Part shown: one piece after another, positions 7,190 through 39,066 of the stretch | How positions within the stretch are numbered: the stretch's first letter is position 1 | How the letters are laid out: every line of letters begins with the position of its first letter | Assembly (NCBI GenBank): GCA_004431415.1 | Contig: QPMI01000165.1 | Span: forward strand, 1-64,000 | Direction: 5' to 3' | DNA from: Cyanophora paradoxa CCMP329 | Lineage: Eukaryota; Plantae; Glaucophyta | Length of the DNA: 64,000 nt | Translations under genes and position numbers: made by a program | The notes under the pieces: model-generated | What the model was told of the DNA's origin: nothing | Databases searched by the model: none | What the model saw: the letters and a program-made list of their open reading frames with translations, nothing else

Positions 7190-8422
7190 CACGGATCCCG
7201 AGAACATTATACAAAGTACGAACGGTAATATTCTCGATGCCGCGGACTTTGAGAGAGTCCCTCAGCTCCGCGCACTGTTTGTTATAGGGGCAAATAATCA
7301 AGCAATTCGATTTTTGGGAGGCGAAACAGTTAACTCCGAGGGTCGATTTTCCACTACCGGGCATGTCAGCAAGGACAAGCATACGATTGTGGAGCTCCGC
7401 AACCCGATTAAGGCACTCCGGATTAAATTCGTCCCTTAGCGAGAACCGGTTAATGAGTATGTCGGGATCCTGAAATTCGAGAGTTACACCCCGTGGTGGG
7501 CGGAGTGCATTCTCAGGGCATCTTTTCCCGGGAATATAGCTGAATTTGCCCATGTTCTCAAACGCATTTCGGTCGAACTCTTTCTTACTTGTCCATGAAC
7601 CTTCAATATATAGGCAATCCGTTCTGATCCCGGCAACCTTGTGCCCGCGCGCTGTCAGGCGCTTGTATTGCGCAAACATATTAGCGCGGTTGCGATCGTA
7701 AATATGAAAGTGGATCGGGAGGAATCCGTTAACGAGCTCGCGGTGAGAGCTGATCTTTACGAAATAGATGTGACCTTCGAATTCGCTGAGAGCTTTGACA
7801 CGTTTCGAATTCTTTGGATTGAAAGTAAACACCTCTACTGTTCCTCCGCATTCTTGGGCGAACCTCTCAGCCTCGGCACGGTTGTAGAACATTTTCGTGG
7901 ATGTTTGCGAGTCTTGGAATTTGCCGAGCATTCCGATCTCTTTCACTAAAAGGTGCTTCTTGTCTGTGGTTTGAATGTCACTTGAAAGCACTTTCTTCAT
8001 CTCAGCGATCGACGTATTGGGCACCAAATGCGAAGGCTCCGCGACCGCGATAATCTCTATCTTGTCCTTTACGTCCGCCCAGTGCATGGCGAGAGTGTAG
8101 CCTGTCATGAAATTATAACAGCGACCACTCACGGAAAATGCGCGATCCAGAATGATTTCGACTCCATCAATCTTGCGAGACATGGCGGCATCATAATCAA
8201 TGTCCTCATCGTCGGCGAAAGTCGCTTGCTCTCTCTCAAACGCGACCACACGCACGTAGTAGATCGCGTATTCGAGAATATCGCTTCCCGCTTTAAAGGG
8301 AACGAAGTCATCGAATACATTGTACTTCGGAAGATATTGCATGCCTTTCAGTATCGAAGGGTAGCACTTCGCCATATCGACGGCTGTGTAGGTGGCTTTC
8401 GGGTTTGGCTTATAGAAATAGC
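7190..8422 (-). pseudogene. Middle part of element C PolB-helicase fusion (polymerase palm plus helicase Walker A)
   Basis: AVDMAKCYPS, KHLLVKEIGMLGK and GIRTDCLYI resemble PolB motifs A/B/C, followed by ADMPGSGKS and LIICPYNK (SF1-like motifs I/Ia). Bounded on both sides by element ends. Confidence 0.8.
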
Positions 8423-8428
8423 CGCTAA

Positions 8429-8499
8429 ACACATAAAGATAAACGTATTTTTAACCCTCGCGTTCCGCTCAGGTTAAAAATACGTTTATCTTTATGTGT
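8429..8499. repeat. Left terminal hairpin of B: 28-bp stem, 15-nt loop
   Basis: ACACATAAAGATAAACGTATTTTTAACC-CTCGCGTTCCGCTCA-GGTTAAAAATACGTTTATCTTTATGTGT. Confidence 0.97.
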
Positions 8500-9452
8500 G
8501 TTAATACATATTTTATATAACTTTAACATGATATTATACATATTTATATGTAATTATCGATGTGAAAATGATAAATTCGATATAACCACGATTAATTTTT
8601 ATGCAAATTCGATATAATCGCGATATATTTAATGTAAATCCGATATAATCCCGATTGCGTTTATTGTAAACAACTACAATTTACTGCGTGATTCATTTAA
8701 TGATAAGGTGGGGCGGTGGGGTCTGGTTGGGTCTGTTTTTCGAATTGCTATAATTGTCTTGGCGTTCTAAATTTTTCTGAAAAGTGACCCCACCACACCC
8801 CACCACCCCACCCTATCGATTAATTTATACTTCCACACTTAATTATATGGTAATTGCAATCTAATATATATCAATTTGAATAGTGGAAATGTTATGTGTT
8901 ATGGTAATGGTTGGGTGTATGGTGGTGTGTAATCTCTTACGTAATTCAGTGTGGGAATCTCTACGATATAGAAGCGGAAATTAACATGTAAATACCGTTA
9001 GATCTGTACAGGTTGGGTGTAAATACCGTTAGATCTGTTCAGGTTGGGTGTAATCTCTCTGGTATTAGAGTGTTAATACTAACATATCATATATTTATCG
9101 ATGCGGTGGGGCGGTGGGGTCTGGTGGGGCATGTTTTTGAAATTAATTATTTTTGGGGATCCGCTCAAAATTTTCTTGAAATTTGACCCCACCACACCCC
9201 ACCCTCCCACCCTATCGATTAATTCATACATCCACCACTTATTTATATGTTAATTTCAATCTAATATATAGCAAAAATAAAGGTGGTGATGTTATAGATT
9301 ATAGTAACGGTGGGGTGTAGGGTGGGGTGTCATTTCTTACTGATTCACGTAAGATTAACATGGAAATCGCGCTACTATATGCTTCTCCGCTTTCTCCAAC
9401 CCGCTAAACATACACGTTATCCTCTCATCTATCATTTGCGTTATTACTGATG
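8429..9452. repeat. Left TIR of element B (1024 bp)
   Basis: Reverse complement of 36148-37169. I saw only 2 substitutions and 2 single-base homopolymer indels. Confidence 0.95.
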
Positions 9453-9564
9453 ATCGTGGGAAAATTTGAAAGTCCCGTGAGCAACCGAAAATGATTTAAG
9501 GAAAACGCGATACATTGGGGTAAGAAGGAAAACATTTTCTCTGTCGAAGATAAGTAAGGATCAA

Positions 9565-10179
9565 ATGGCGGTTACTATTAATACTGATCAGATGGCGTAC
9601 CTCTTCAATGGTAAACGTATCTTTGAATATCCTCTTTCCGATCTATCTTTCAACGTTGCCGAATTGTTTGATATCATCTTCTCACTTGATAATGACCGTA
9701 TGCTATTTTCCTTTATTAATACATTCTTTGCTCCGAAAGATATCCAATCGATCGGTTTCTTTATTGAAGAACCGCATAAGATTGTCATCCGTTCTACCGC
9801 TGGTTTCTCGTACGTAAAAATCCATGATTTTTCAATTAAGTATAGCATTGTTGACATCGACACAGAAGATGAAGGAGGATACCAACCTGTTGTGGATTTC
9901 TGGCATCTGTATAGATGCACTCCGTTTACTCTTATCGATGTTATCAGAACAATTAAGCGTGTTCAATCATTTAACCTTCTCTATTTCAAGGTTGATCGCA
10001 ATATGTCCGTTTATTATAAGAAGTTTGAAGAGCATGGATTGAAGATTACACGCCGTGTTACACTGCGGAAATTCTTGAAAGCCAACGGGGCTAAGTGGAG
10101 CCGCAATTGTAGAAGGTGGTATATTGAGGAAAACAACCAACTCATCGCTGATATCTTTTCAATCGCTCCCCAACGCTAA
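9565..10179 (+). CDS. Hypothetical protein with a DUF5710-like C-terminal motif
   Basis: 204-aa ORF; LKANGAKWSRNCRRWYI resembles the GAxW...WY motif. Confidence 0.6.
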   Translation: MAVTINTDQMAYLFNGKRIFEYPLSDLSFNVAELFDIIFSLDNDRMLFSFINTFFAPKDIQSIGFFIEEPHKIVIRSTAGFSYVKIHDFSIKYSIVDIDTEDEGGYQPVVDFWHLYRCTPFTLIDVIRTIKRVQSFNLLYFKVDRNMSVYYKKFEEHGLKITRRVTLRKFLKANGAKWSRNCRRWYIEENNQLIADIFSIAPQR

Positions 10180-11070
10180 AACCTCCAACTGAAACGAATT
10201 ATCTATACCGTTCATATCTACAAGATCACCATAATAATCACGAAACTCTACTGTTAACTCTTTAATCACCAAATTACGATCGTTTATTTTTACATACTCG
10301 CTCACTTCTCCGGTGTGATAGATGTATTTCCCGATGTCCTGACTCAATTGCAATCGCATTATTGCGCCTTGATTCTGCGGTTGTGATTTCGGTACTATGT
10401 TATGGTTTGATGCAAATGGTGCGAGTTCTTTGATGTGCATGTATAAATACTGTTCAGCGTTCATATCCGCCATCTTTGGACTAACTGCTTTAAACGACAA
10501 TGCTAACGGATCTGCGCCTTCAAATGTAATCCCCCACTGTGGGTGATCTGGTGTTATTGGTATTCTTTCATATGATAAGAAATTTTCCGGTGCAAACCGT
10601 GACCTGTTTCCTTCTATTAAGTTTTGTGCGCTTACTAATAGTTCTGTGGAGCTGAGACCAAGTAATTTTGCGATCCTGTTGTTTGCCGGAATAAGTTCAA
10701 AAGGGAAATTACAATAAAACTCCAACTTGTATGTTGTTGGGTTGTAATAAATTTTAAAGTACACTGTTTCGGTTGCGTTTGTTTCATAGTTCAACCCATA
10801 GTTATAAGGATAAGTAACCCCGAAATGCCCTTGATTTATGTAACCACTTGGTAATGGAAATAGATGCTGATTAATATCAACGCCATTGACTTTGTAACTT
10901 ATGACAATATAATCGGTTCCAATCGAATTATAAATGCTGTTGGGAATCTCTGCATATAAAACTCGACATTCTCGTGGTCTGGTTATTGGTGTGGTGAGTG
11001 CAACCTTATAAGAGTTTTCTTTTTGTCCAAACTGTCGATCTCTACTATCGACATTTACAAGCCGAATCAT
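10159..11070 (-). CDS. Minor capsid (penton-like) protein 1
   Basis: Likely start MIRLVNVDSRDR. VLYAEIPNS and ELTVEFRDYYGDLVDMNGIDNSFQLEV match PLV/NCLDV minor capsid motifs. Homologue at 44298..45143. Confidence 0.8.
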   Translation of the reverse strand: MIRLVNVDSRDRQFGQKENSYKVALTTPITRPRECRVLYAEIPNSIYNSIGTDYIVISYKVNGVDINQHLFPLPSGYINQGHFGVTYPYNYGLNYETNATETVYFKIYYNPTTYKLEFYCNFPFELIPANNRIAKLLGLSSTELLVSAQNLIEGNRSRFAPENFLSYERIPITPDHPQWGITFEGADPLALSFKAVSPKMADMNAEQYLYMHIKELAPFASNHNIVPKSQPQNQGAIMRLQLSQDIGKYIYHTGEVSEYVKINDRNLVIKELTVEFRDYYGDLVDMNGIDNSFQLEVLALGSD

Positions 11071-11098
11071 TTTATTATATGAATATAGATTAAAGAAA

Positions 11099-12109
11099 AT
11101 GCCTGTGGAATATGTTGAAGTGTCTTCATTCAAACAACTACCTAACCTTGATGCTCCAACATCGCGATTCATTGCCGATCTCCGTAAAACATTCGATGAT
11201 GTGAGAGCGGTTCGACTTGTTTCGGCGGAGTTTTATAATTCCATTCCAATCATTAGCGGTGATTCGGTTGCTGGTGATGCAACAGTTGAAGATGCATTCA
11301 CAATCAATTTCAGTATAGCAAATGCCGCTGTTAATTCTACGGCTGCTCCCGCTCCTGGTTTTGATGTGTGGCGAAGTATTCGACCCGGTATTGGTCTTGG
11401 TCTGAACGTTATTAATACGCATCAAGAACTGGCGGATCGGATTACTGAACTATTCGCTGGAAATACACCAAACCCAAATATAGTCTGCAAATGGGACGCT
11501 TCCAACAAGAGATTCATATTTCATGCTCCGCATCAATTCTATATTGCATTCGTGACAGATAAAGACCCAAAGGTATCCGGTGCCGAAGCGGGTAACCGTC
11601 GCGCTCGTGTTTTAGGTCTCGATGCTGGGCGTAGAGGTAATAGATTTATCAAATCGAGTGTGTACACTGCTCAAACAGATCCCGTATTTACCGGTGCAAA
11701 TGTACATGGGATCATCTCAACTTTTCCAACTGAAACTTGTAAGGATAATGTAATATTTGTGAGAGTAAAAGAACTCGGTGACCTCATCCAATGCGCTGAT
11801 GGTCTTCTCACTGGATATTTTCATAAGTTGACTGTTCAAGATAAAAATTTCGCTGAACACATAATATATAATTCAACGGAAGCAAACCCGATGTATAAAT
11901 ACTACAATAAGAAGATGTCACTATCGCAACTCTCAATAGATATAGTGAACGCTCAGAATCAGTTAATAGATTTTGAAGGTCAACCTGTGCATCTGACATT
12001 CGAAATCCGCTATGGAGATGAACCCGCCGGTGATCCCATTTATGAATATTTCAAAATGAGAATGAGAGAGACCCACCCCTTCTATCCAAATATTGCCGGA
12101 TTCGCGTAA
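11099..12109 (+). CDS. Minor capsid (penton-like) protein 2
   Basis: VRAVRLVSAEF and LSIDIVNAQNQLIDFEGQPVHLTFEI motifs; homologue at 43355..44281. Confidence 0.8.
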   Translation: MPVEYVEVSSFKQLPNLDAPTSRFIADLRKTFDDVRAVRLVSAEFYNSIPIISGDSVAGDATVEDAFTINFSIANAAVNSTAAPAPGFDVWRSIRPGIGLGLNVINTHQELADRITELFAGNTPNPNIVCKWDASNKRFIFHAPHQFYIAFVTDKDPKVSGAEAGNRRARVLGLDAGRRGNRFIKSSVYTAQTDPVFTGANVHGIISTFPTETCKDNVIFVRVKELGDLIQCADGLLTGYFHKLTVQDKNFAEHIIYNSTEANPMYKYYNKKMSLSQLSIDIVNAQNQLIDFEGQPVHLTFEIRYGDEPAGDPIYEYFKMRMRETHPFYPNIAGFA

Positions 12110-12163
12110 ATTAAGGATCATTCACAGAATTTTTATATTTTTGTATAGTAAAAGCAAAACAGA

Positions 12164-13564
12164 ATGGATGTTACATCGACCCTTCAACGTCTATCGCTCA
12201 AAGAGGCGCTAACAACGCCGGAGGAAGCCAAAGCGTTCTTCCTCGATAACTCGCTTATGCTTGGTCTTGAATCGAAGACTAAACCCGTTCTGGTAACTGT
12301 TAGTCCATCAACAACCTACGATAACAACGTTGGTCAACGCGTTTCTTTCAAACTTCCCCGCTATAACTTTGTTGGTAAAATTGAACTCGCTTTCGATCTT
12401 CCCGAACTAACCGCTTTCGAAGGCGATACCGACCTTGTGCGAAACGGTTACACCCGTCCCGTTGGTGCGCTTGTAGAGCGTCTCGAATTCTCGTATGGCT
12501 CGTATACCTACCACGTGCCGTCTGATTTCCTGGCAATTTTCCCGCTGGTCTACTATTCTGAGGATCAGCTCGCGAAAAAGAAGCGTTCAATGGGTATGCT
12601 CCATGGTATTCCCGCTCACGGAACCAACCGCAAAGGTGGCGCTTTCTTCGTTGAAATCCCGGTGCCGTGGTTGAATCATTACTTGCCCCTTGGTGCGCTC
12701 TCGGGCGAAGCCGTTATCACTGTGTGGTTTAAGGAAACTAACAAGGGTTACCTTGAAACTTCTTATGGCGGTCGCTCTCTTCCCGTTGTTGGAACCACTG
12801 CTACCGATAAATCATCAGATGATGGACTCGGAAATGCTACAAGCGTTACACTTGCTAATGTAGGTCAAAACATCACCACTGGCGGTATCACTGGGTTCGA
12901 AGTTGCTGGAACTGTTCCACCAATGACCCATTACATCTCCATTAAGTCTCCTCGTCTCTACATGCATGCTATCAACGTGTCAGATGAACTGTTTGCTACT
13001 GTTATTGAGAAGGTTAAGACCACGGGGATGGCTATTCCCGCTCTCGACATCGGTTTTGTCGATGCAATTGGTGTTGCTGCGAAAGGTAACACTCAACCCA
13101 ACCGAATCAATCTTAGCCAAATCTCCGGTCTGGTTTATGCTCTTCTTGTCTCTGTTCGCGATGCTGATGGTGTCGATACTTCCAATGGTTCTCACAGCGT
13201 CCTTAAAACGCTTGCGAATGCGAAGGATATCACGATGACTTGTGAGATCAACGGACAGCGTCTCTATTCGACCGAGCCAATCCCTCTACTAAAAGGTGCG
13301 GAACTCATCGCCGATGCCTTCAAATGCTCAAACATGGACAAGGAAGCAAACCGCTACGTCCTTACCGGTCTTCCATTCTGTGTTGACGGTGAGAAGGCGA
13401 TTCGCAACATTGCCCAATCTGGATATGTTGACCTTACAAACTCATCGTCATCGTTCCTCACTCTGTATCTCCCTGCTGATCGTACAATTACTGTTAACGT
13501 TCGCGCTCTCATGCATTCGTTCATTATTGTCGATAAGGACGGAATTCGCCGCATTAATCTCTAA
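12164..13564 (+). CDS. Major capsid protein (putative double jelly-roll)
   Basis: 466 aa, beta-rich, RVSFKLPRYNFV motif, lies between minor capsid and ATPase genes; homologue at 41994..43307. The fold is inferred from context. Confidence 0.78.
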   Translation: MDVTSTLQRLSLKEALTTPEEAKAFFLDNSLMLGLESKTKPVLVTVSPSTTYDNNVGQRVSFKLPRYNFVGKIELAFDLPELTAFEGDTDLVRNGYTRPVGALVERLEFSYGSYTYHVPSDFLAIFPLVYYSEDQLAKKKRSMGMLHGIPAHGTNRKGGAFFVEIPVPWLNHYLPLGALSGEAVITVWFKETNKGYLETSYGGRSLPVVGTTATDKSSDDGLGNATSVTLANVGQNITTGGITGFEVAGTVPPMTHYISIKSPRLYMHAINVSDELFATVIEKVKTTGMAIPALDIGFVDAIGVAAKGNTQPNRINLSQISGLVYALLVSVRDADGVDTSNGSHSVLKTLANAKDITMTCEINGQRLYSTEPIPLLKGAELIADAFKCSNMDKEANRYVLTGLPFCVDGEKAIRNIAQSGYVDLTNSSSSFLTLYLPADRTITVNVRALMHSFIIVDKDGIRRINL

Positions 13565-13625
13565 ACCATTATCAGTAAGATTTTGTTATTTTTATCTATC
13601 TTTATTAAGAAAGATCTACTACGCC

Positions 13626-14408
13626 ATGTCTGACGTTCCCGAATTTAATGCTGGTGAGATGATAAACCCACCATTCCGTGTCTTAGCAATCGGAAAATCT
13701 GCGACGGGTAAAAGCGAAGCGGTAAAGTATTGGCTAAAACAGTTACATGATGCTAAAAAAATCGATGTTGTTCTTGTTGTAAGTGGAACCTCATTCAATC
13801 ATTTCTGGGATAAAGTAGCAACCTTACAACTCGGAAAATGGGATGCGCCTTACATCGCTAAACTTCTCGATGAAAGACAAGAGAAAATTGAGAAAGGAGA
13901 ACCCGTAAACCAATTATGTGTTGTCCTTGATGATCTTATAGATAATGAGATTGTAGACCTAACCCGTGATAAAATTATTGGATCTCTGTATTCGAGGGGG
14001 CGTCACAGCGCGATATCGATAATTTGCATCACACAGAAACTTCGTAAGGTTTCTTCAACCATTCGCGTCAATTCTGATTACGCAATGTTTCTTAGTGCCG
14101 CTAACAGGAAAGAACTTGAAGCCATCGAAGAAGAATACAATATCATGCGGGATAAAGACGCTTTTTATAAGATGTTTGAAGAGTATGTACATTCCTATCA
14201 GTTTCTCATTTGGAGTTCTGCTAATTATTCGGTGGAATACTATGTTGATAAAGCGGAACTCGTTAAAGAGTTTGGGTTTCCTCGGTTTCACAGAAAGCCC
14301 AAAAAGAAAGAAGACGAATTAAAACCGCCTGAGAAGGAGGAAGCGCCAAAAGAGATTAAAAGCGCTGTTCACACTAATAAATTGATGCGATATAAGAGGG
14401 GATTGTAA
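13626..14408 (+). CDS. A32/FtsK-like genome packaging ATPase
   Basis: GKSATGKS (Walker A), VVLDDL (Walker B), RGRHSAISIICITQ. Confidence 0.93.
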   Translation: MSDVPEFNAGEMINPPFRVLAIGKSATGKSEAVKYWLKQLHDAKKIDVVLVVSGTSFNHFWDKVATLQLGKWDAPYIAKLLDERQEKIEKGEPVNQLCVVLDDLIDNEIVDLTRDKIIGSLYSRGRHSAISIICITQKLRKVSSTIRVNSDYAMFLSAANRKELEAIEEEYNIMRDKDAFYKMFEEYVHSYQFLIWSSANYSVEYYVDKAELVKEFGFPRFHRKPKKKEDELKPPEKEEAPKEIKSAVHTNKLMRYKRGL

Positions 14409-14436
14409 AATTATCTCTGTATGTTATAAATATACA

Positions 14437-15168
14437 ATGCCGCCGAAACGTAGAGGTGTTCCCGCTGGTGCTATATCGTATTCCGGCGGTGAAAGTCATG
14501 GATCTCTCAACACCACACCCATGAAATTCAACGGAATGAGCGAAGTGAAACCATCGCAACAAGAAGAAGACCCTTTAAATGCCGCTTATGAAGAAGCGCC
14601 CGGTGATAAAGCGCCGCAAACCTCCCAAAGTGAGCAATTGAACATTTCGCCGGAAGTCTCAAAGATGAAGGCGGTCGGTGAAGGCGCTCGCCGAATTATC
14701 GGTGCTGCCGATGATCGTGAACTTGGTCTAAAAGATCTTTCACTCGCTCGCAAGGGTGAAGGTGTTTCCAAAGAATCGGACAAGGTAATTCAATCGATGG
14801 CTGGTGAAGTCACTTACAAGGTTGCGCCAACTCAAAACATCCACCGAATCCCGAAAGCTCAATGGGATGAAATGACCGCTAAATTAAAGGATCTCGAAGC
14901 GAAATCAAGCGCTCTGGAACAGTATGTAACTGAGAAAAAGGAGAGATCGAAAATTAAGGAAATGCTGCGCAAAGAAGTATTCCGTATGGGTATCACAGGT
15001 CTTCCCGATAAGCAATTTATTGGTAAGAAAGAGACGCAAATAGATGAACAAGCGGTAGATGAGTTGAAGACCAAGACCCAAAAGGGTACTGTTGAACCCG
15101 GTGCTACGAAAGCGGAAGTTGATAAAGGTGTAGCTCCCACAGCATACAAGCGGAGAGTTTGGTTATAA
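14437..15168 (+). CDS. Hypothetical charged protein, possibly virion core
   Basis: 243 aa; syntenic homologue at 40392..41074. Confidence 0.7.
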   Translation: MPPKRRGVPAGAISYSGGESHGSLNTTPMKFNGMSEVKPSQQEEDPLNAAYEEAPGDKAPQTSQSEQLNISPEVSKMKAVGEGARRIIGAADDRELGLKDLSLARKGEGVSKESDKVIQSMAGEVTYKVAPTQNIHRIPKAQWDEMTAKLKDLEAKSSALEQYVTEKKERSKIKEMLRKEVFRMGITGLPDKQFIGKKETQIDEQAVDELKTKTQKGTVEPGATKAEVDKGVAPTAYKRRVWL

Positions 15169-15194
15169 ATATATATCTTTTAAAGAGGGAATCG

Positions 15195-15413
15195 ATGGAC
15201 TTTCTGAAAAAGATCATTGAGATGTTTGAGATGCATTGCGTAACTGATTGTCACAATGACTGCTGCGATACGAAATTCGAAATGGATTTCTCAGATGGTG
15301 GAAGCGATGGAGGGCGAAGGCATTCGCAAGATTCGATAACAACTGAGACAATCACCGTTACGGAAACAGAGACTGTCCGCCGCCGATCGTTTTCGCAAAA
15401 CGATCATAAATAA
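15195..15413 (+). CDS. Small Cys/His-rich protein
   Basis: IEMFEMHCVTDCHNDCCDT matches IEMFHLHFISHCKSGCCDT in 39774..40187. Confidence 0.75.
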   Translation: MDFLKKIIEMFEMHCVTDCHNDCCDTKFEMDFSDGGSDGGRRHSQDSITTETITVTETETVRRRSFSQNDHK

Positions 15414-15616
15414 TATCTTTGGTTATGGTATCAAATGTCACGTGAAGAGATCTACACCATCATACTATCGAAACGAAAGATTTACGCCGTTAAATCTGCA
15501 ATTGAAGAACGTAGACACCAACTGGCTTTGGTCGCCAAAAATTGACAACCCAAAAAGGATTTAAAGGTACTGCGATATTACACACTGATAAAATATTTTC
15601 TCTGCTTAAAATAAGG

Positions 15617-15880
15617 ATGGCTGCGTTTGCCGATGATGTTAGCGTTGTTGAACTTGAATTTGATAGCGACGAATCCATGGACTCTCCAACTGAGAAAACT
15701 AAAACAAGTGCTGATGGTATCAGTTATAGAATCCGTAAGATCATTGCTCAACGCAATAGATATAATGAGGATGCCGAATATCGCGAACTGAAAAAGAAGA
15801 AGGTATTAGAAGCGTATTACCGTCGTAAAGCGGAGGAGGGAACCAATATGGGAAAGCGTGGAAGACCGCGCAAGTATTGA
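15617..15880 (+). CDS. Small basic protein with AT-hook-like motif
   Basis: RYNEDAEYRE and KRGRPRKY; homologue at 39236..39649. Confidence 0.75.
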   Translation: MAAFADDVSVVELEFDSDESMDSPTEKTKTSADGISYRIRKIIAQRNRYNEDAEYRELKKKKVLEAYYRRKAEEGTNMGKRGRPRKY

Positions 15881-16092
15881 ATAGAAAACCCCCAATTGCC
15901 GCTGGACATCATTTCTTATTTTTCGAGCGGCTTACCGATTATATTCGGTAATTCCGTTACCATTTCTCGATTGCCCCGATTTAATCGATTTATTTCCCGA
16001 TACGGAGGAAAAAGTATTTAAAGACAAGGCGCCAAAAAATGACAAGGAAGAAAAATATTTTCTCAACCTATTGTAGAAAGAGAAAGTTGGAA

Positions 16093-18753: not shown

Positions 18754-18757
18754 TGTT

Positions 18758-18977: not shown

Positions 18978-19023
18978 CAAACGCGTTCAAAATCCAAAAT
19001 AAAAATGTTCCTTTATAATAAAG

Positions 19024-24490: not shown

Positions 24491-24603
24491 ACCTCTGTAA
24501 TGCCGTTTGACCAAGAAAAAAATGTTTGGAAAAAAATAAATAACTTATTATATATACATATACATATATATAATCAAAAAATCGGAAAAATTCCCTCTTT
24601 TTT

Positions 24604-26139: not shown

Positions 26140-26186
26140 CTTTACTTAACTTAAATTTAATAAATCTGTATAATAGAGAAAGCAGG

Positions 26187-30371: not shown

Positions 30372-30390
30372 CTATTTCGTAATTATAAAG

Positions 30391-31461
30391 ATGACCTCTC
30401 TATTAGAAATCCCAAACTATGAACTTGCAGCCAAATCACTCCACAGCACCTCTCATGAAGTAGTCGACTCTACACCCGGTTTTATTTGCACTGAAACTAC
30501 AAGTAATACCTCTTTCACAGAGAACAGTATACTGAGGGTCAAAGAAATTCGATGTGATCGAAATGGAGGCAAGATTAGAACCACAGGCATTATAATCTCG
30601 AATAAAAACCAAGTTCAAGCAGGTCAGGTAGTCCCCAATTCAGCAATATATGATAATGTGGGTGGATTCACCACAGCACAGATAGTTACTTTCGATAACA
30701 CAATAAATAATTCGGCTCTTGTTGTCAAGAGTGGAGGAGCATACATTGGAGATGGGGCAAATGTTGCAGGGACTGTAACAGCGAATCAATTAAATGTGAA
30801 TGGGACAAGTTCATTTACAGGATTGATGACCTTCAATGGTGGACTCTTGGGAAATGTTAGCGTTGAAACTCGAAAAGCTACAACAAGAGTTAATGCACCT
30901 GAGATGGATAATGGGACAGATGCAAATGTGAATTATAAACGAAACGGAAATACCATTTTCACTCTCGAAAAGACAATAACAGATCTGAAAGCAATCACAA
31001 TCCCGGAAAATAGTGGTCTGAAACGATCCTATTGTCCAAGAATGAATATATCAAGACAAGCTCCTGGTTTGACAGGGTCCATAATACTTACAGCTGGAAC
31101 ACCCTTTAACTTTATAAATGGAGCTTATCTTGTAAACAATGAAGGAAACTTTTCATCCACAAAATTTACAGCTCCTGTTTCCGGAGTATATAGGGTGTTC
31201 TTTGCATGTATGAGAGCTGGCACAACCTCTTATACTCATATTGCTACCAGCATTTATTTAAATGGAAATCCTACAACCATCCAAACAAGGGTTTCAATGC
31301 CGTCCGCAGGGATTTCTAATACATTTGTAACTCCAATTTCATATGAAATTTTACTTTCTGTTATTGAAGGTGACTCCTTTGATATACGCAATTCTTCTGG
31401 AGCCAGTCTTCAATTTGATATCAGATACTATTTTTCATGTTATCTTGTTAGTACTACATAA
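30391..31461 (+). CDS. Fibre-family protein with C1q-like head
   Basis: Likely start MTSLLEIP; RVKEIRCD/SGGAYIG domain; FTAPVSGVYRVF. Confidence 0.85.
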   Translation: MTSLLEIPNYELAAKSLHSTSHEVVDSTPGFICTETTSNTSFTENSILRVKEIRCDRNGGKIRTTGIIISNKNQVQAGQVVPNSAIYDNVGGFTTAQIVTFDNTINNSALVVKSGGAYIGDGANVAGTVTANQLNVNGTSSFTGLMTFNGGLLGNVSVETRKATTRVNAPEMDNGTDANVNYKRNGNTIFTLEKTITDLKAITIPENSGLKRSYCPRMNISRQAPGLTGSIILTAGTPFNFINGAYLVNNEGNFSSTKFTAPVSGVYRVFFACMRAGTTSYTHIATSIYLNGNPTTIQTRVSMPSAGISNTFVTPISYEILLSVIEGDSFDIRNSSGASLQFDIRYYFSCYLVSTT

Positions 31462-31483
31462 TATTATCTGTATAATATAAAGA

Positions 31484-32506
31484 ATGTCCACACAAATAGC
31501 AGTTCCTGTTTTCTGTTATGCCGCCCCAAAAATACATCAACTGAACCATACAGTAACAGATGCAACACCTGGGTTTATTTGCACAGAAACAACAGGGGCT
31601 GATTCGTTTTCACAAAATTCTGTGATTAGATGCAAAGAAATTCGATGTGATCGCAATGGGGGAAAAATAAGAACCACAGGACTCATTGTATCTAACAAGA
31701 ACCAAGTCCAATCAGGTCAAATTGTTTCAGATACAGCAATTTATGACAATGTGGGAGGGTTCACCACACCCAAAATAGTTACTTTTGATAATACAATTAA
31801 TAATGCTGCTCTTTCAGTTAGAAGTGGAGGGGCATATATTGGAGATGGGGCAAGGATTGATGGAACTCTAACAGCCAATCAAGTAAACATTACAGGAACA
31901 AGCACATTTACAGGTTCAGTAACAGCCAATGGAGGCATAAGTATTCCAGAAACAACACAATCGATAATAACAGCAACTGCCAAGGTGGTCACACCTGAAA
32001 TCGATACAGGAGCAAATGTGAATCTTGTTTTGAAACGCAACAGTGATATTATGGCTACTCTGGAAGCCAATCGCTTGACAATCAACACAAATTGTTATTT
32101 AAAATATGACTATCAGCCTCGATTTTCTGTTCAACTTAATTATCCTCATGTTGCTACCAGTGAAACTGCTCTTATCAATTGGGGAGTAGTGTTTGTGAAT
32201 AATAGGGGGGCATTCAATGTCAGTAATGGAAGGTTCACTGCTCCTGTTGCAGGTCATTACAGATTTACAGCATATACCCATTCAACTTCAAGTAGTCCAA
32301 TAAGTCTCTCTTTAAAAGTAAATGACCAAGACCCAGGGGGTCAAAGTATCATAACACTAAATGACTCAACTCTTACGAATAAACCGCTTTACATTAGTGT
32401 AATTCTTAACATTGCTATGGGTGAGTATGTAACACTTGTAACCATTAATGGGGGTAGCTACACAAATCGAACAACATTCACAGGTGAGCTTCTCAGTCTC
32501 ACATAA
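31484..32506 (+). CDS. Fibre-family protein with C1q-like head
   Basis: Same N-terminal domain; GRFTAPVAGHYRF...FTGELL. Confidence 0.85.
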   Translation: MSTQIAVPVFCYAAPKIHQLNHTVTDATPGFICTETTGADSFSQNSVIRCKEIRCDRNGGKIRTTGLIVSNKNQVQSGQIVSDTAIYDNVGGFTTPKIVTFDNTINNAALSVRSGGAYIGDGARIDGTLTANQVNITGTSTFTGSVTANGGISIPETTQSIITATAKVVTPEIDTGANVNLVLKRNSDIMATLEANRLTINTNCYLKYDYQPRFSVQLNYPHVATSETALINWGVVFVNNRGAFNVSNGRFTAPVAGHYRFTAYTHSTSSSPISLSLKVNDQDPGGQSIITLNDSTLTNKPLYISVILNIAMGEYVTLVTINGGSYTNRTTFTGELLSLT

Positions 32507-32527
32507 TTTTCTCTCTATAAAATAGGA

Positions 32528-32794
32528 ATGTCGAATATATACCAAATGGCTCTCTCAGATATTGAAAAGTTGGGAATGGAATATTGCGCTGCTTCTGTTC
32601 AGGATTGGATTGATAATGTTGTTCATAACAGGGCAAGAATCGCAATTGATGATATTGTTCAGAAAGAGATTCAATCTTGCATCTCATCAGGAGTTCAGAT
32701 ACCAACATCAAAAGAAGCCATTGTTTTACAGGCATTCCAAAGGGGAACTGTAAAGAAAGGCATCGAGTATAATAATGTCACAGAAGGACAATGA
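32528..32794 (+). CDS. Small fibre-associated protein
   Basis: QDWIDNVVHNRARIAIDDIV; four homologues in the window. Confidence 0.85.
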   Translation: MSNIYQMALSDIEKLGMEYCAASVQDWIDNVVHNRARIAIDDIVQKEIQSCISSGVQIPTSKEAIVLQAFQRGTVKKGIEYNNVTEGQ

Positions 32795-32829
32795 ACATTA
32801 TTTTTCTTTCCTTCTTAGTAAAAGAAGCA

Positions 32830-33672
32830 ATGGGTGAATATAATCGTGTGCAATTGCCCGTTTACGCTTTGGGATCGCCCGCCGTCCACTTTCGACAACA
32901 CGAGGTAGCCGACGAAATTCGCGGTGTGGAATCTACGGAGCGCGCCAATTCCGCGAATGCATTCGATAAAAACAGTATGGTACGTGTGAAAGAACTACGA
33001 GCCGATAAGAATTCGGGAGTTGTTAAAACTACTCAACTTCTCGTAACAAATGCGAATTTCAACGCGGGTATTGGGCAACCAGACGCATGGGGTGTAGATA
33101 TTCGAACGTTAGATTTTGACGGAGAACGTGCCGCCGCTGTTGTCCGATCGGGAGGCGCTGTTATTGGTGGCGGCTGTCGTGTGTCGGGTATGCTTGCATC
33201 CTCCGTTGCTGTTACCGATATTCCCGATACTCTACCTGAGCATGCGGACAATCCGCAACGTATCCGTATGTACACTCCATGTGGAGACTATCCATATGTG
33301 TTTGGAATGGTTAGAGTTGGGGTAGATAACGTAAATGCAACACAACCCGATGGAATTATGGGTAATTGGTTATTACCAAATATTGCTATTCCTAAATCTA
33401 TTGAGTCTATATGTCGTTCACAAAATGGTATTATTGGTCCGGCTTATACTTTCTTTGTTCAGGGAATCAGACGCGGTAGAGGTTGGGTCGAATTTGACAA
33501 CCAGAACCCCGCAACGTTCAATGTTTGGACGACAGAAGTAGGAGGTTATGATATTCTCATTTTCGGAATGCGAACAGATCCAGCCGCTGTGGCGGCTACA
33601 CGTGGTCTCAATCCTGATAACAACATAAATAACTTCTACGATGATCCGTTCCCAGGTGATCCCACACCATAA
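32830..33672 (+). CDS. Fibre-family paralogue (shared N-terminal domain, non-C1q C-terminus)
   Basis: Likely start MGEYNRVQ; RVKELRADK...SGGAVIG; homologue at 59770..60615. Confidence 0.8.
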   Translation: MGEYNRVQLPVYALGSPAVHFRQHEVADEIRGVESTERANSANAFDKNSMVRVKELRADKNSGVVKTTQLLVTNANFNAGIGQPDAWGVDIRTLDFDGERAAAVVRSGGAVIGGGCRVSGMLASSVAVTDIPDTLPEHADNPQRIRMYTPCGDYPYVFGMVRVGVDNVNATQPDGIMGNWLLPNIAIPKSIESICRSQNGIIGPAYTFFVQGIRRGRGWVEFDNQNPATFNVWTTEVGGYDILIFGMRTDPAAVAATRGLNPDNNINNFYDDPFPGDPTP

Positions 33673-33691
33673 TTATGTTTTAATATATTAA

Positions 33692-34537
33692 ATGGCGGCA
33701 CCTGCTCCACCTGAACGCATCTTAACAGCGCAACTTTCATTAGCCGCGCCGGCAAATCACGTATTACAACATGCCGTTATCGATAATGTCGATGGTCTCG
33801 AATCTACCGAACTTGCACCAACTCTTAATACTTTCGGTGATACACACAAACTGCGACTCAAAGAGTTAAGATGTGACAAAAATAACGGAATCGTGAAAAC
33901 TACGAAACTCCTTGTAACAAATGCAAACTTTAACGCTTTTTATGGAGATCCAGATAGTTACAATGATGATAACAAGGTAACAAACTTTGCTTATGAATCG
34001 AGAAACGGAGCAATTAAATGTAGATCGGGAGGCGCTTACATTGGTGATGGTCTGAGAGTGGGTGGTATCGTGGGAGCGCCTCTAATCGTAAATGATCAAC
34101 CAAATCCCGATGATGAGAACACACGTATTAGGACATATTGCCCAGGTATGAATGAACCTTACATTATTAAAATTTACACGATTATTATTAGTTTACAAAC
34201 AGCGGTAGCTGATGTTTTAGAACCGTTGGGAAATCATTATAGATATAGAGACACGATACCAGAGGACATTTACGCATTATGTAGAAGAACCGACGGAGCA
34301 AGACCACGCCTTACGATACATATTATCCCCATAGATAATTTCGGTCAAGCGTTTCACTCAATACCTCTTTTAGATACACAAGATAACCAATTTATAATAA
34401 GAGCTACACAACTTGGAAATTATCGAGTCATTATGTATGCCGAAAGAAACGACGCAATTGCAACAGCTAACCGATTCGGTCAATATCTTAATACCAATCT
34501 ATACAATCCCGTCGGCGGTAGTGATCCGCTACCATAA
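33692..34537 (+). CDS. Fibre-family paralogue
   Basis: RLKELRCDK...SGGAYIG; homologue at 58910..59746. Confidence 0.8.
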   Translation: MAAPAPPERILTAQLSLAAPANHVLQHAVIDNVDGLESTELAPTLNTFGDTHKLRLKELRCDKNNGIVKTTKLLVTNANFNAFYGDPDSYNDDNKVTNFAYESRNGAIKCRSGGAYIGDGLRVGGIVGAPLIVNDQPNPDDENTRIRTYCPGMNEPYIIKIYTIIISLQTAVADVLEPLGNHYRYRDTIPEDIYALCRRTDGARPRLTIHIIPIDNFGQAFHSIPLLDTQDNQFIIRATQLGNYRVIMYAERNDAIATANRFGQYLNTNLYNPVGGSDPLP

Positions 34538-34558
34538 ATCTACGGTATATATAGAGGA

Positions 34559-34831
34559 ATGGATGAAAAAACAAGAAAGTTTATAGATACCGCTATGTCA
34601 GTCCATGGTAAGGATAAATTTGATTATAGCGACACTGTTTATAAGAAAGCGCAAGAAAAGGTATCTGTTAGATGCCTACAATGTAATAAAACGTTCCAAA
34701 CCTACGGATTTAATCACATTAAGGGGTCAGGTTGCCGACAGTGTTCTAAGAAACACTCACATGCATACAGAAAAAAAACTACATGGGGAATAGTAATAGA
34801 AGAGAAGCCAATTATGTTGTACTTTGATTGA
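34559..34831 (+). CDS. DUF723-like zinc-binding protein
   Basis: VHGKDKFDYS...CLQC...NHIKGSGCRQC; homologue at 58615..58887. Confidence 0.75.
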   Translation: MDEKTRKFIDTAMSVHGKDKFDYSDTVYKKAQEKVSVRCLQCNKTFQTYGFNHIKGSGCRQCSKKHSHAYRKKTTWGIVIEEKPIMLYFD

Positions 34832-35626
34832 TTTCGTAGTTAGTCATTATGAGATGGTTCCTTTTCTTTTTTGATATACCATACACTTTACCATATGTAT
34901 GTCGAATAAAGGGTTTAAATAGCAATTTCATTAATAAAGCATCATTAACAACCATCATAACTTTGCATTTCGCGGTCTTAAATAGATCTTCTAAATCCAA
35001 AAAGAATTTTTCCAAATCGAATTCTACATTTTCGTAAAAGTCATTATTGCTATTAACGTATGGAGGATCAAGAAATATGAATGCATCCTCATCATCTTTG
35101 TATTTCAACACAATATCCCGATAATCCCAAGAGATAAGTTCACATCTCGTAGGAAATCATCGTATGGTATCTTCTTTTTAAGAGTTGTATATGAACTCAC
35201 CTTAACGTTTCGTTTTTTGAAATCACGGAGGGTTTTAACATTTAAAACGCTGTTTTTAAGAAGATAGAAATTATGCGCTAAGTAATCTATTGCATCTTTA
35301 CGATCATGTTGTAGAAACTTCTTATAAACTTCTTTATGCTCTTCTATATTGCTTACTGCTTCGAACTGTTGAAGACTATCTAAAAGTTTTACTTTACTGT
35401 TTGGGTCTTTCATTGTATTCAAGAAAAGTATATGTGTTTCGTCGTTATCATTCATAAAGTAATCAAAACGTTCTTTATGCTTTTCCCAAAGATAGAAACT
35501 AAATGCACCTGAACCACAAAATGGTTCTATTATTTTATTTATGCCTTCTAAATCGATAAAAGGATTGATTGTATCCATTTCATTGTATTTATTACCTACA
35601 TATTTATGGTAAAAGTGAGTCTTCAT
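34812..35626 (-). pseudogene. Dam-like N6-adenine DNA methyltransferase with one frameshift near 35130
   Basis: YVGNK and EPFCGSGA in 35105..35626; FIFLDPPY in 34812..35111. A one-base shift joins them (SWDYRDIVLKY). Confidence 0.85.
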
Positions 35627-35846
35627 TTACCATAGATAGAGAAAAACAAATTACATATGTAGACGGGACAAAGGAATTAAGACTTTACCGGTTCTGTTTC
35701 TTGTGATTATGCAAGTATCGAAGCAATTCGGACATGTCTTATGATAGTAAACCATTATGATATCAACCAACTCATACGGGAATACTTTCGCTAAGATGGT
35801 TCGCATCCTACTAATTCCGTTTTTAATTTTTCTATATAATTCATAA

Positions 35847-36245
35847 ATGAATCATCGCGGATTCCATGTAATGTTAGATTACAAGTTCAACCATCCATTA
35901 ATGATAGGATTGGACAACTTAGAGACCACAACGAAGTGGTTAATGCAATTTTTTCAATCTATTATTCAAGAACAAGGTATCAGAGTAGTACACAAGCACT
36001 GCGAGATTTTCGATGGTGGTCTTTCACCTCCCGGTTTTGCTATGGTTCTTCTCCTTGATGAGAGTCATTTAACCGCTCATTGTTACTCAGATCAGGGAAT
36101 GTTAGCAATCGATATATTCACTTGTGGTACAGAAGCGGAGCATAAGACATCAGTAATAACGCAAATGATAGATGAGAGGATAACGTGTATGTTTAGCGGG
36201 TTGGAGAAAGCGGAGAAGCATATAGTAGCGCGATTTCCATGTTAA
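35847..36245 (+). CDS. speD: S-adenosylmethionine decarboxylase proenzyme (short prokaryotic-type family)
   Basis: GFHVMLD, LLLDESHLTAHCY (ESH autocleavage site), AIDIFTCG. Confidence 0.88.
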   Translation: MNHRGFHVMLDYKFNHPLMIGLDNLETTTKWLMQFFQSIIQEQGIRVVHKHCEIFDGGLSPPGFAMVLLLDESHLTAHCYSDQGMLAIDIFTCGTEAEHKTSVITQMIDERITCMFSGLEKAEKHIVARFPC

Positions 36246-37169
36246 TCTTACGTGAATCAGTAAGAAATGACACCCCACCCTACACCCCACCGTTACTATA
36301 ATCTATAACATCACCACCTTTATTTTTGCTATATATTAGATTGAAATTAACATATAAATAAGTGGTGGATGTATGAATTAATCGATAGGGTGGGAGGGTG
36401 GGGTGTGGTGGGGTCAAATTTCAAGAAAATTTTGAGCGGATCCCAAAAATAATTAATTTCAAAAACATGCCCACCAGACCCCACCGCCCCACCGCATCGA
36501 TAAATATATGATATGTTAGTATTAACACTCTAATACCAGAGAGATTACACCCAACCTGAACAGATCTAACGGTATTTACACCCAACCTGTACAGATCTAA
36601 CGGTATTTACATGTTAATTTCCGCTTCTATATCGTAGAGATTCCCACACTGAATTACGTAAGAGATTACACACCACCATACACCCAACCATTACCATAAC
36701 ACATAACATTTCCACTATTCAAATTGATATATATTAGATTGAAATTACCATATAATTAAGTGTGGAAGTATAAATTAATCGATAGGGTGGGGTGGTGGGG
36801 TGTGGTGGGGTCACTTTTCAGAAAAATTTAGAACGCCAAGACAATTATAGCAATTCGAAAAACAGACCCAACCAGACCCCACCGCCCCACCTTATCATTA
36901 AATGAATCACGCAGTAAATTGTAGTTGTTTACAATAAACGCAATCGGGATTATATCGGATTTACATTAAATATATCGCGATTATATCGAATTTGCATAAA
37001 AATTAATCGTGGTTATATCGAATTTATCATTTTCACATCGATAATTACATATAAATATGTATAATATCATGTTAAATTTATATAAAATATGTATTAACAC
37101 ACATAAAGATAAACGTATTTTTAACCTGAGCGGAACGCGAGGGTTAAAAATACGTTTATCTTTATGTGT
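36148..37169. repeat. Right TIR of element B (1022 bp), including the terminal hairpin 37099-37169
   Basis: Reverse complement of 8429-9452; followed by TSD CGCTAA. Confidence 0.95.
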
Positions 37170-39066
37170 CGCTAAGTGCGGATCGCTTGTAGTGCGTGAG
37201 AATTTCGCGCATGTTCGGGCTGTAATGTGAGATATTCGTCGCATTTAGTAGCGACTCGCGGAACCCCTTACCGATTTCACAGACCTTATTATAATACTCC
37301 TCTGTTTCGAAATCTTGCTCAATAAAGTGGTCTGTTGTGCGTGGATCTTTGATAGAGAACATCGAGCCATTGGCTTTGAATGTGATGCTGTCGATCTGTT
37401 TCGATGGTGTTAGCTTCACAGCGGGCTCATATCGCATTTTCAGGAACGTAAATAGAAGACCTTCCAGACCTTCGCGCCCAGTATACAGAATGCGAATGAA
37501 ACTGCGCTCGTCAGGCGATAGTTTTAATTGCGTGATCTTTAACAGATCCTTGGATGTGTGCGCGAAGATATCGTGAGTAAGACACGTCGGAATTTTATAG
37601 AGTGCTAACGAAGAGGTCGACTTAGGAACATGATTATCGAGCTCTTCGACCTCCATCTTTGCCATGCGCATTTCGAGCGACTTGATGTTATCGTTGAATA
37701 TATAGATGTGCTTGTTGTGAATCATAAAGTGAATATTGCGTGGAAAGATGTTTTTGTTAATTGATTCCGCCGCGAATTTGTATATTAACTTTCCGTCGAC
37801 ATCAAAGACGCGGAAGCCTGTCTGGATTCTCTTACAGAATTTCTCGATATGGCGGAGCGTGAGAGCCAGAGAGTCGCCAGGTGTGCGTTCACGACCGTGA
37901 AAGAATTTATAGAGACCGTCGTAGGACATAGTTAAGTCAGTATATCGCGGTTTTGGCGCCTCCTGACACTTCGTAATGGACTCTCCCCATGTGGAGATGA
38001 TCATATCATAGCCGCAAGCGTTAGATGTCGATGATTTGGGAAGCTCAATAACATCTTCGAACTCAGACGCGTTTGGATTTAATGTGTAGTCTGTGAATTT
38101 GCTCATAATCGCGGTGCATCGCATGCTGTCCATTAGCTCCTCATCCAGAAACTCATAGCGATTGCCAGGGATAGCACCGGCTCCGTCATCTTCGACACCT
38201 TCGTCCCCATAGATCACGACCTCATGAACAGTTATAAAGGCATCATCGACACTGCCGCCAAAATCATCGAAACCTTTGCGTAGTTTTTTCTGTTCCTCGG
38301 TTGGTGGTGTCTTAAAGAAGAACATCTCGTATGCTTGTCCGAAAGTTCCCAGACCAATCTTCAATTCATCGTAGTTTTCGAGTAAATCGAAGATTGAATC
38401 TCTCTCTTCCGAATAATAACGATTTTGAGCGGTGAGAATTCCATACACTCTATCGATTTTTGCCAGAGCAAAGTTTCTCAACACCCTCACCGAAACTGTC
38501 TCTCTTATATTCTGGTAGGTGACAAAGGTTTTGTCTTTTATATATGTTCCGGGAATTCCGGGAATAACAATTACCTCCGACGACCGAGCACCGGATCCGG
38601 GCGCCCATAGCTTGAACGTAATTGTTGCGAGAGTTTCCGGATCGTATGCGGCGATTGGGTCGAGAATATTGCGTTTTATCGCATCCTCTACCGCTTTTAC
38701 TTTACCTCTCTGCTGCTTCGCTTCGAGTTTCGCTTCTTTCGCTCGTTTCTGTTCTTGCTTGCGATCGAAGCGCTGTAAACGCTTAGCCTCTTGTTCTTTT
38801 TGCTTCTGCTTTTCTATATTAACTTGGGTGCGAGCGGCGCGCTTTTCTTTCCGCTCTGCCCTGCGGAAAACGCGGGGATTAATGATTCCATTCAGAGTAT
38901 CCCGAATGTCGATAAGCGTTTGGAGCTTGGGCTTCCTGTTCATCGTGCTGTTCATCGCCCAATGCGCCTGTTCTTCGGTTAGCAAATCCTGACTCAATCC
39001 CTGCATAATGTATCCGATAATCTCCTCCCGAACATTGTTAGCGATTCTGTTGGCTGCGCGCGGCAT
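37170..39066 (-). pseudogene. N-terminal part of element C PolB-helicase fusion
   Basis: Joins 8422 in frame after removing B and one TSD copy (...HYKRSALS|GYFYKPNPK...). NACGYDMI...HNKHIY is a possible OTU-like dyad. Confidence 0.88.

What the first reader, a model, noticed from the sequence alone, without database searches (positions are those of the whole stretch)
7190..39066. Two PLVs inserted independently into the same replication gene of a third PLV
Seen: deleting 8429-37169 plus one CGCTAA restores an open frame from 39066 to 7190 (1043 codons, ...RSALS|GYFYK...). That frame is cut again at 7189 by the hairpin end of element A. Two insertions lie 1.24 kb apart in one gene. Inference: either integration targeted to related elements (superinfection that disables the resident's replicase, or a safe harbour) or a tolerated endogenous-virus cluster. 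With only two events, chance cannot be excluded; D sits in host DNA.
Basis: partly seen in the sequence, partly recalled or inferred. Interest (0 to 1): 0.82.

Follow-up and report, generated by a model that had tools for sequence, protein, structure and literature searches.

The report
Virus pile-up splits a replicase gene
One complete hairpin-ended DNA virus and the end of a second cut the polymerase-helicase gene of a third integrated virus at two points 1.2 kb apart, most likely because this spot is a crowded landing ground for such viruses rather than because they aim at that gene.

Summary
Element B (8429-37169) is a complete polinton-like virus with 1-kb TIRs, terminal palindromes, an rve integrase and a CGCTAA duplication. 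It splits a Tlr1-like pPolB-SF1-helicase gene of element C into two stop-free pieces, collinear in 91 of 91 homologues hit by both. The palindromic right end of element A cuts the same gene 1,239 bp away, leaving out about 380 helicase residues. A's left end lies outside the window, but a high-depth contig runs through that site uninterrupted.

Gene-specific targeting is not supported. Contig depth suggests about 30 C-type genes. A third hairpin-ended element (D) sits 2 kb beyond C in single-copy host DNA. The three target sites share at most a CG step. Given a local cluster, two of three insertions in one ORF has a chance of about 0.2, or 0.08-0.09 for this gene. Uniform genome-wide insertion cannot explain the cluster, so a regional hot spot is needed; its cause is untested.

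PLV-in-PLV nesting, hot spots, terminal palindromes and this replicase type are all in print. This is a clean new example of a known kind.

The parts
1..7189 (+). Element A, right part only: fibre-like genes, TIR region from about 6060-6150 to 7189
   Evidence: 646-3727 is 95% identical to C 47807-50910; TIR-like blocks resemble B's TIR at about 70-78%
7119..7189 (.). Terminal palindrome of A (28-bp arms, branched 15-nt loop)
   Evidence: DNA fold; X1 contig ends exactly at 7189
7190..7195 (+). Presumed right copy of A's target-site duplication (CACGGA); left copy not in window
   Evidence: sequence; duplication inferred by analogy with B
7191..8426 (-). C replicase, middle piece: pPolB palm (motifs A, B, C) and start of the SF1 helicase (Walker A)
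   Evidence: 412 codons without stop; profile positions 528-884; model pLDDT 85, top 8 Foldseek hits phi29 polymerase, best E 1.7e-3
8423..8428 (+). Left copy of B's target-site duplication (CGCTAA)
8429..37169 (+). Element B, complete 28.7-kb polinton-like virus
   Evidence: TIRs, duplication and gene set
8429..9452 (.). B left TIR with terminal palindrome 8429-8499
12164..14408 (+). B major capsid protein (12164-13564) and A32 packaging ATPase (13314-14408)
   Evidence: MCP 29% identical to C's MCP, E 3e-62; Pox_A32 E 3e-10
16039..18753 (+). B primase-helicase (PriCT-2 plus DUF5906, D5-like)
19024..22305 (+). B family-B polymerase with an endonuclease VII-like stretch
   Evidence: PolB-like motifs read from the translation (motif names recalled); Endonuclease VII; no PDB sequence hit
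22491..23891 (+). B rve (DDE) integrase, D132-D194-E229; no chromodomain hit
   Evidence: foamy-virus integrase E 2e-7; Atlas rve clusters 0.98; Pfam rve only weak, E 0.002; residue positions
36148..37169 (.). B right TIR with terminal palindrome 37099-37169
37170..37175 (+). Right copy of B's target-site duplication (CGCTAA)
37171..39066 (-). C replicase, N-terminal piece, with the invariant Cys and His expected of the vOTU domain (domain name inferred)
   Evidence: profile positions 14-526, E 9e-70; Cys and His invariant in 105 of 105 homologues
41077..45143 (.). C morphogenesis module: A32 ATPase 41077-41943(-), MCP 41994-43307(-), two putative minor-capsid-like ORFs (label inferred from position)
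   Evidence: Pox_A32 E 1.7e-10; Atlas capsid clusters 0.98 but recognition 1864, below the tool's 2300 mark
45150..54435 (.). C patatin-like gene and fibre-like genes
54524..55160 (.). C right terminal region, high-copy, without a terminal palindrome; exact end not fixed (about 55145-55160)
   Evidence: depth falls from over 2,300 to 76-130 between 55004-55170 and 55171-55337; no palindromic end found by the window-wide search
55161..57164 (+). Host DNA, GC 55%, TPR-like coding sequence; 55161-55546 is repeated at 56782-57164
   Evidence: single-copy depth 37-43 (X6) and 68-85 (X1), duplicated part 1.6-1.7x; weak TPR hits; GC
57165..64000 (-). Element D, one end only; terminal palindrome 57165-57237, preceded by GCGCAG
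   Evidence: fibre genes 91-96% identical to B's and C's

Best explanation
A complete hairpin-ended polinton-like virus (B) and the end of a second (A) interrupt the pPolB-SF1-helicase gene of a resident, non-hairpin PLV (C), most likely because this region is a PLV hot spot where new insertions accumulate, not because they aim at that gene. Shown: B sits between 6-bp duplications and encodes a DDE integrase; the C gene is one gene cut at two places; D sits 2 kb away in host DNA. Inferred steps: (1) the rve integrase joins the palindromic ends to target DNA with a 6-bp staggered cut and little sequence choice; (2) A entered the same way; (3) the region is favoured by its chromatin state and by weak purifying selection, since PLV DNA and duplicated host DNA are dispensable; (4) the first hit disabled this copy's own replication, the second was neutral, and roughly 30 sister copies would supply the protein in trans; (5) the replicase is C's largest gene (about 19-20% of its length) and richer in CG steps, so a double hit there is an unremarkable draw once the cluster exists. 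Which element came first cannot be told. Both hits are recent, as the pieces have no stop and B's TIRs differ at only 4 positions.
For: Four PLVs in 64 kb, three with palindromic ends, landing within about 21 kb of pre-insertion DNA, one of them in host DNA. Within such a cluster, P(two of three in the same ORF) = 0.21-0.22, P(two of three in the replicase) = 0.08-0.09 and P(closest pair within 1,239 bp) = 0.27-0.29; counting only A and B these are 0.09-0.10, 0.04 and 0.11 (C length of 21-23 kb assumed). Single-contig depth over host single-copy depth: C replicase 32-34x, A TIR 20-34x, B TIR 4-7x, D TIR 39-92x (rough). The main C-type contigs run uninterrupted across the A site. Target sites CACGGA, CGCTAA and GCGCAG have no common centre. 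No chromodomain hit on B's integrase. In print: PLV hot spots where new PLVs integrate into established ones (PMC9356565, passages); 5 PLVs and 9 virophages nested in other viral elements (10.64898/2026.07.28.741278, section 8); no sequence-specific integration of rve-type EMALEs (PMC8547959, passages).
Against: Tolerance alone is not enough on my rough model. With 30% of a 70-Mb genome tolerated, only 0.0006-0.0025 doubly hit replicase copies and 0.01-0.11 such triples are expected; insertions must be confined to about the PLV fraction to reach 0.05-0.20. So something concentrates insertions strongly, and I could not tell regional chromatin from attraction to PLV DNA. The replicase-specific chance (0.04-0.09) is lowish. 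All three sites contain CG (chance about 0.05 from the local 6-mer frequencies). Copy numbers rest on contig depth, which the tool warns is no copy number, and D's ratio differs twofold between runs. Element number and genome size in the model are assumptions.
Confidence: 0.63

Rival explanations
1. Soft targeting. The integration complex of the hairpin-ended family is drawn to resident PLV DNA, perhaps to PLV ends or to CG-rich viral DNA, and lands within 1-2 kb. The cluster would then be built by the elements themselves as a safe harbour.
For: Every site lies close to another PLV end: A and B 1.24 kb apart, D 2.0 kb from C's right end. In a related contig the integrase directly follows the replicase (L001), so both hits may lie near C's left end (inferred). 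A and B share a 19-nt palindrome core. A G-rich motif is concentrated in the A and B TIRs and C's end. Uniform and gene-avoidance models fail. The replicase has CpG o/e 1.35-1.40 against 0.99 in the rest of C. Precedent for virus-preferring elements: 91% of type 1 Ngaros lie in EMALEs (PMC8547959, passages).
Against: Three sites only. No targeting domain was found on B's integrase (one of the six Atlas rows shown has Chromo in 15% of members). A regional hot spot gives the same distances.
Confidence: 0.22
2. Gene-specific interference. Hairpin-ended PLVs aim at the replicase of the competing C family and disable it.
For: Both nested hits are in this gene; chance 0.04 if only A and B are counted. 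The families differ in end type and replicase while sharing fibre modules, so they likely share a host.
Against: The two sites differ in sequence and domain (just before the palm; inside the helicase). A second hit in a broken gene gains nothing. About 30 copies remain, with the main contigs uninterrupted and no further A- or B-end joints listed in the 1.24-kb piece in 4 of 4 runs (weak). D lies in host DNA.
Confidence: 0.05
3. Only B is a clean insertion. A's end was joined to C by a one-ended event or adjacent deletion, or by an assembly misjoin between high-copy repeats, so there is no second independent insertion.
For: A's left end is not visible. No listed contig piece bridges 7189/7190. 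The A part carries one-base deletions typical of poorly polished sequence: 19 of 20 indels in 3.1 kb are single-base.
Against: The join is exactly at the last base of A's palindrome, where a short-read contig also ends. A misjoin would need shared sequence, and the self-comparison shows none between A's end and the C gene.
Confidence: 0.1

Closest known systems
Nested PLVs and virophages with terminal palindromes in Halocafeteria seosinensis (bioRxiv 10.64898/2026.07.28.741278; passages and sections 7 and 8 read, supplements not seen)
   Same: PLV-in-PLV nesting, a three-layer nest, palindromes at TIR ends next to TSDs, rve integrases, and elements with both pPolB and a D5 primase-helicase (as B).
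   Different: There 52-nt palindromes are described for virophage subtype 5; here 71-73 nt with a branched loop. The sections read do not report two viral insertions in one gene.
PLV integration hot spot in Tetraselmis suecica (PMC9356565; passages)
   Same: 56% of PLV MCP ORFs lie in one 0.8-Mb region. The authors propose that new PLVs integrate into established elements and so exchange replication genes.
   Different: That is a megabase-scale distribution, with no base-resolved nested junction in the passages read. Here one locus is resolved to the base but the genome-wide distribution is unknown.
Tlr1-like pPolB-S1H replicases of PLVs and transpovirons (PMC11161782; passages)
   Same: TP-vOTU-palm-SF1 helicase order; motifs A and B kept, first Asp of motif C replaced.
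   Different: C's protein is only 23-38% identical to its nearest sampled relatives and is broken twice.
Ngaro retrotransposons in EMALE virophages of Cafeteria burkhardae (PMC8547959; passages)
   Same: A mobile element nested in an endogenous virus, at times in its primase/helicase or pPolB gene.
   Different: There a real preference was measured over 80 elements and the invader is a tyrosine-recombinase retrotransposon. Here the invaders are PLVs and n = 2.

Membership tests
Polinton-like virus (B, C) | [quoted passage not shown] | tested here: met
   C MCP: Atlas capsid clusters 0.98, recognition below the tool's mark; B MCP 29% identical to it. The single-sequence fold failed, pLDDT 32; no Pfam hit.
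Polinton-like virus (B, C) | A32/FtsK packaging ATPase | tested here: met
   Pox_A32 above cut-off in both
Polinton-like virus (B) | 14-40 kb, TIRs, rve integrase with 5-6-bp TSD | tested here: met
   28.7 kb, 1,024-bp TIRs, CGCTAA duplication, DDE integrase
Polinton-like virus (A, C, D) | Both ends, TSD and integrase | not testable with these tools
   Only one end of each is in the window; no genome held
Maverick/Polinton proper (B) | pPolB plus rve integrase | tested here: met
   19024-22305 and 22491-23891; PolB motifs read by eye, no database hit for the polymerase domain
Maverick/Polinton proper (B) | Capsid maturation protease | tested here: not met
   No protease family among the 42 ORFs scanned; a divergent one could be missed
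Maverick/Polinton proper (B) | AG...CT termini (recalled) | tested here: not met
   B begins ACACA and ends TGTGT, in palindromes
Tlr1-like pPolB-S1H replicase (C gene) | Protein-primed PolB palm with motifs A, B, C | tested here: met
   D17, K157, D270 invariant in 38 aligned sequences; top 8 fold hits are phi29 polymerase, E 1.7e-3 to 2.3e-2, none under 1e-3
Tlr1-like pPolB-S1H replicase (C gene) | C-terminal SF1 helicase | tested here: met
   Walker A present in the piece; 10 of 10 homologues scanned hit SF1-type families at E<=0.01, 7 of 10 above a curated cut-off. The rest of the domain is outside the window.
Tlr1-like pPolB-S1H replicase (C gene) | vOTU domain present, exonuclease absent | tested here: inconclusive
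   Invariant Cys and His align; the N-piece was not folded
Site- or element-targeted integration system | Enrichment of independent insertions in one target over many sites | not testable with these tools
   No genome; the end pattern found 0 loci in viral and metagenome contigs
Site- or element-targeted integration system | Shared target sequence | tested here: not met
   The three 6-mers share only a CG step at different positions; two of them are presumed TSDs

The most novel reading that the evidence does not exclude
Hairpin-ended PLVs home in on the replication-integration end of a second, protein-primed PLV family in the same genome. This would be virus-on-provirus targeted integration: it gives the invader a safe harbour, disables the resident copy, and places a new replication module next to the resident's capsid genes, which could drive replicase swapping among PLVs.
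Probability: 0.1. Interest if true: 0.75.

Novelty: new member of a known kind. Interest (0 to 1): 0.3.

Why it matters
The locus is a base-resolved snapshot of the process proposed to explain replicase and fibre-gene mosaicism in PLVs: elements landing in one another in hot spots (PMC9356565; 10.64898/2026.10.13.758929, section 13). The host carries roughly 70-100 related elements of at least two end types by depth, and 18 public runs hold half or more of the stretch's words. That makes it a good system for measuring whether PLV integrases prefer other PLVs, which is an open question. As it stands, the double hit does not itself show targeting.

Tried and rejected
No whole genome is held, so A's left end and a genome-wide map were out of reach. 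The palindrome-core pattern gave 0 loci in viral contigs and metagenome contigs. Related-locus scans of viral contigs with the C-piece, B's integrase and P0002 gave none; the alignment was too divergent for that scan. The word-indexed protein search found no longer relative of the C-piece, while the exhaustive search found 355 at E<=0.001. PDB sequence searches with the C-piece and B's polymerase gave nothing usable. The single-sequence MCP fold failed. The wide structural search was busy and never ran. The Atlas did not complete for the C-piece. Host not identified: the TPR-like ORF found only its own record and run labels are coded. No RNA holder listed. Earlier findings by place or sequence: none. 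Rejected: (1) that A is an old decayed copy; its differences from C are 75 synonymous to 30 non-synonymous, and the indels are mostly one-base deletions in runs, which look like consensus error; (2) that the rest of the helicase lies elsewhere in the window; a six-frame scan found only the two pieces plus one hit at E 0.95; (3) that A and B form one composite element; B has its own duplication on both sides; (4) that D lies in a high-copy repeat; depth is single-copy apart from a two-copy stretch.
Full report
LAYOUT. The window holds four related integrated viruses and 2 kb of host DNA. A (1-7189) is seen by its right part only. B (8429-37169) is complete. C is seen as 7190-8428 plus 37170 to about 55150. 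D (57165-64000) is seen by one end. Host DNA (55161-57164, GC 55%) has single-copy contig depth apart from a duplicated 386-bp segment. The host was not identified. All 24 listed runs carry one coded species label, and 18 hold half or more of the sampled words. PLV content and the size of the contig sets (69-124 million letters) suggest a microbial eukaryote, which is inference.

ELEMENT B. Its TIRs are 1,024 bp and 99.6% identical, differing by two substitutions and two one-base indels. Each ends in a 71-nt palindrome with 28-bp arms, and CGCTAA lies on both flanks. It encodes an A32 ATPase, a PriCT-2/D5-like primase-helicase, patatin and fibre-like proteins, an MCP 29% identical to C's, a family-B polymerase (motifs read) and a DDE integrase. 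No protease family was found among 42 ORFs scanned.

THE INTERRUPTED GENE. The pieces 39066-37171 and 8426-7191 are stop-free and in the phase a clean insertion predicts; together 1,043 codons. The second piece finds 355 proteins at E<=0.001, mostly 1,200-1,400 aa. A profile of 105 of the 150 listed (those of 1,150-1,500 aa) places the pieces at positions 14-526 and 528-884 of 1,275. This is independent support, since the homologues were collected without the N-piece. The N-piece hits 91 of 105, always upstream; a median 378 residues remain beyond A's cut. Ten of 10 homologues scanned carry SF1-helicase-type families there, 7 above a curated cut-off. A model of the second piece (pLDDT 85) has phi29 polymerase as its eight best structural matches, best E 1.7e-3, none under 1e-3. 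This is the Tlr1-like pPolB-S1H fusion (PMC11161782, passages; PMC12721341, passages). B entered just before polymerase motif A; A entered shortly after the helicase Walker A motif.

ELEMENT A'S JUNCTION. A ends in the same kind of palindrome. In short-read contigs, one ends exactly at 7189 and another, at depth 1,375, runs through 7190 into 175 letters of non-A sequence. The 30 letters shown read by eye as an open continuation of the frame, if they are the junction-proximal ones. So the site is a true break in a gene that exists uninterrupted elsewhere. No listed piece bridges the junction (32 of 4,429 pieces shown), A's left end is unseen, and A's part of the window shows consensus-type errors. 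I give 0.1 to a one-ended event or misjoin.

IS IT MORE THAN CHANCE? Ratios of single-contig depth to host single-copy depth give about 32-34 for the C replicase, 20-34 for A's TIR, 4-7 for B's and 39-92 for D's. The tool warns that depth is no copy number, so these are rough. With 30-60 hairpin-ended elements, 33 C copies and 70 Mb assumed, uniform insertion expects 0.0001-0.0002 doubly hit replicase genes; a 30%-tolerated genome 0.0006-0.0025; insertion confined to 2.2 Mb of PLV DNA 0.05-0.20. The clustering is therefore real and needs a strong concentrating cause. But D, in host DNA 2 kb from C, shows that the cluster is wider than the gene. Given three insertions over 23-25 kb, two share an ORF with chance 0.21-0.22 and the replicase with 0.08-0.09. 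With A and B alone, the figures are 0.09-0.10 and 0.04. The three target 6-mers share only a CG step (chance about 0.05), and the replicase is the CG-richest part of C; this is a lead only. No joint from an A or B end to another place in the 1.24-kb piece was listed in 4 of 4 runs, and none from D's end into C's last 2 kb in 2 of 2; contigs drop rare variants, so this is weak.

MECHANISM. Most likely (0.63): rve-mediated integration with little sequence choice into a PLV-dense region; the first hit left this C copy dependent on its sisters and the second was neutral. Next (0.22): attraction to resident PLV DNA or ends, which fits the 1-2-kb distances and the failure of the tolerance-only model. 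Gene-specific interference (0.05) has no payoff for a second hit or against about 30 copies.

PRIOR WORK. Nested PLVs and virophages, and terminal palindromes next to TSDs, are described in Halocafeteria (10.64898/2026.07.28.741278; passages and sections 7 and 8; supplements not seen, and they may list genes hit). Hot spots with PLV-into-PLV integration and replicase exchange were proposed for Tetraselmis (PMC9356565, passages). Tandem integration and multi-replicase genomes are in 10.64898/2026.10.13.758929 (passages and section 13). Retrotransposons nested in PLVs or virophages are in PMC8547959, PMC12220804 and PMC12747079 (passages). I found no report of PLVs targeting another PLV's replicase, or of two PLVs in one gene, in five searches and the passages read; other listed papers were seen as listings only. 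Two earlier scan notes on other genomes reached similar 'crowding' verdicts; they were not checked and are not counted as support.

VERDICT. Real, well resolved, and a new member of a known kind. Interest 0.3. The targeted-integration reading has probability about 0.1 and would merit 0.75.

Noticed in passing
window 18756-18981: A TIR-like block (about 70-78% similar to the A and B TIR repeats) lies inside B, between the primase-helicase and the pPolB-rve pair; AT-rich direct repeats follow the integrase at 24132-24486. B may have gained a repeat-bracketed second replication module, as described in 10.64898/2026.10.13.758929, section 13. The two brackets are not similar to each other.
   Followed up: partly
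window 646-3727 vs 47807-50910; 29443-30911 vs 62532-64000; 52047-54433 vs 60673-63062; 29276-29842 vs 50891-51475: Fibre-like gene blocks are shared at 89-96% between elements whose MCPs (B vs C) are only 29% identical and whose ends differ, so modules are being exchanged among co-resident PLVs.
   Followed up: partly
window 7119-7189, 8429-8499, 37099-37169, 57165-57237: All four terminal palindromes have the loop in the same orientation relative to the end (no flip-flop); chance 1 in 8 if orientation were random.
   Followed up: no
window 55161-57164: C's right end and D's end abut the two copies of a 386-bp duplicated TPR-like host segment. An X6 contig ending at 55567 fits a 6-bp duplication GCGCAG at D's other end (indirect). 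By eye, D may interrupt a short exon.
   Followed up: partly
window 6003-6057 and 54469-54523: A 55-bp block, 98% identical in A and C, lies just inside two unrelated terminal regions; a possible shared signal or crossover point.
   Followed up: no
window 5699-5962, 32527-32790, 54188-54450: A small conserved ORF of about 87 aa follows the fibre genes in A, B and C; very high contig depth at 54169-54335.
   Followed up: no
window 34780-35626 (-): B's adenine methyltransferase (Pfam MethyltransfD12) is split by a frame change near 35110-35190; decay or sequencing error not told apart.
   Followed up: partly
window 35847-36245, 58187-58585, 24604-26139, 45150-46643: S-adenosylmethionine decarboxylase-like genes next to the TIR in B and D; patatin-like genes in B and C.
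   Followed up: no
window 57165-57647: D's TIR depth over host depth differs between runs (39x in X1, 92x in X6) while the C replicase ratio does not (32x, 34x): library bias, strain difference or free copies.
   Followed up: no
L001 2622-8078: A distant 1,657-aa relative of the C replicase is followed after 39 bp by an ORF that reads like an rve integrase (by eye, not scanned).
   Followed up: no
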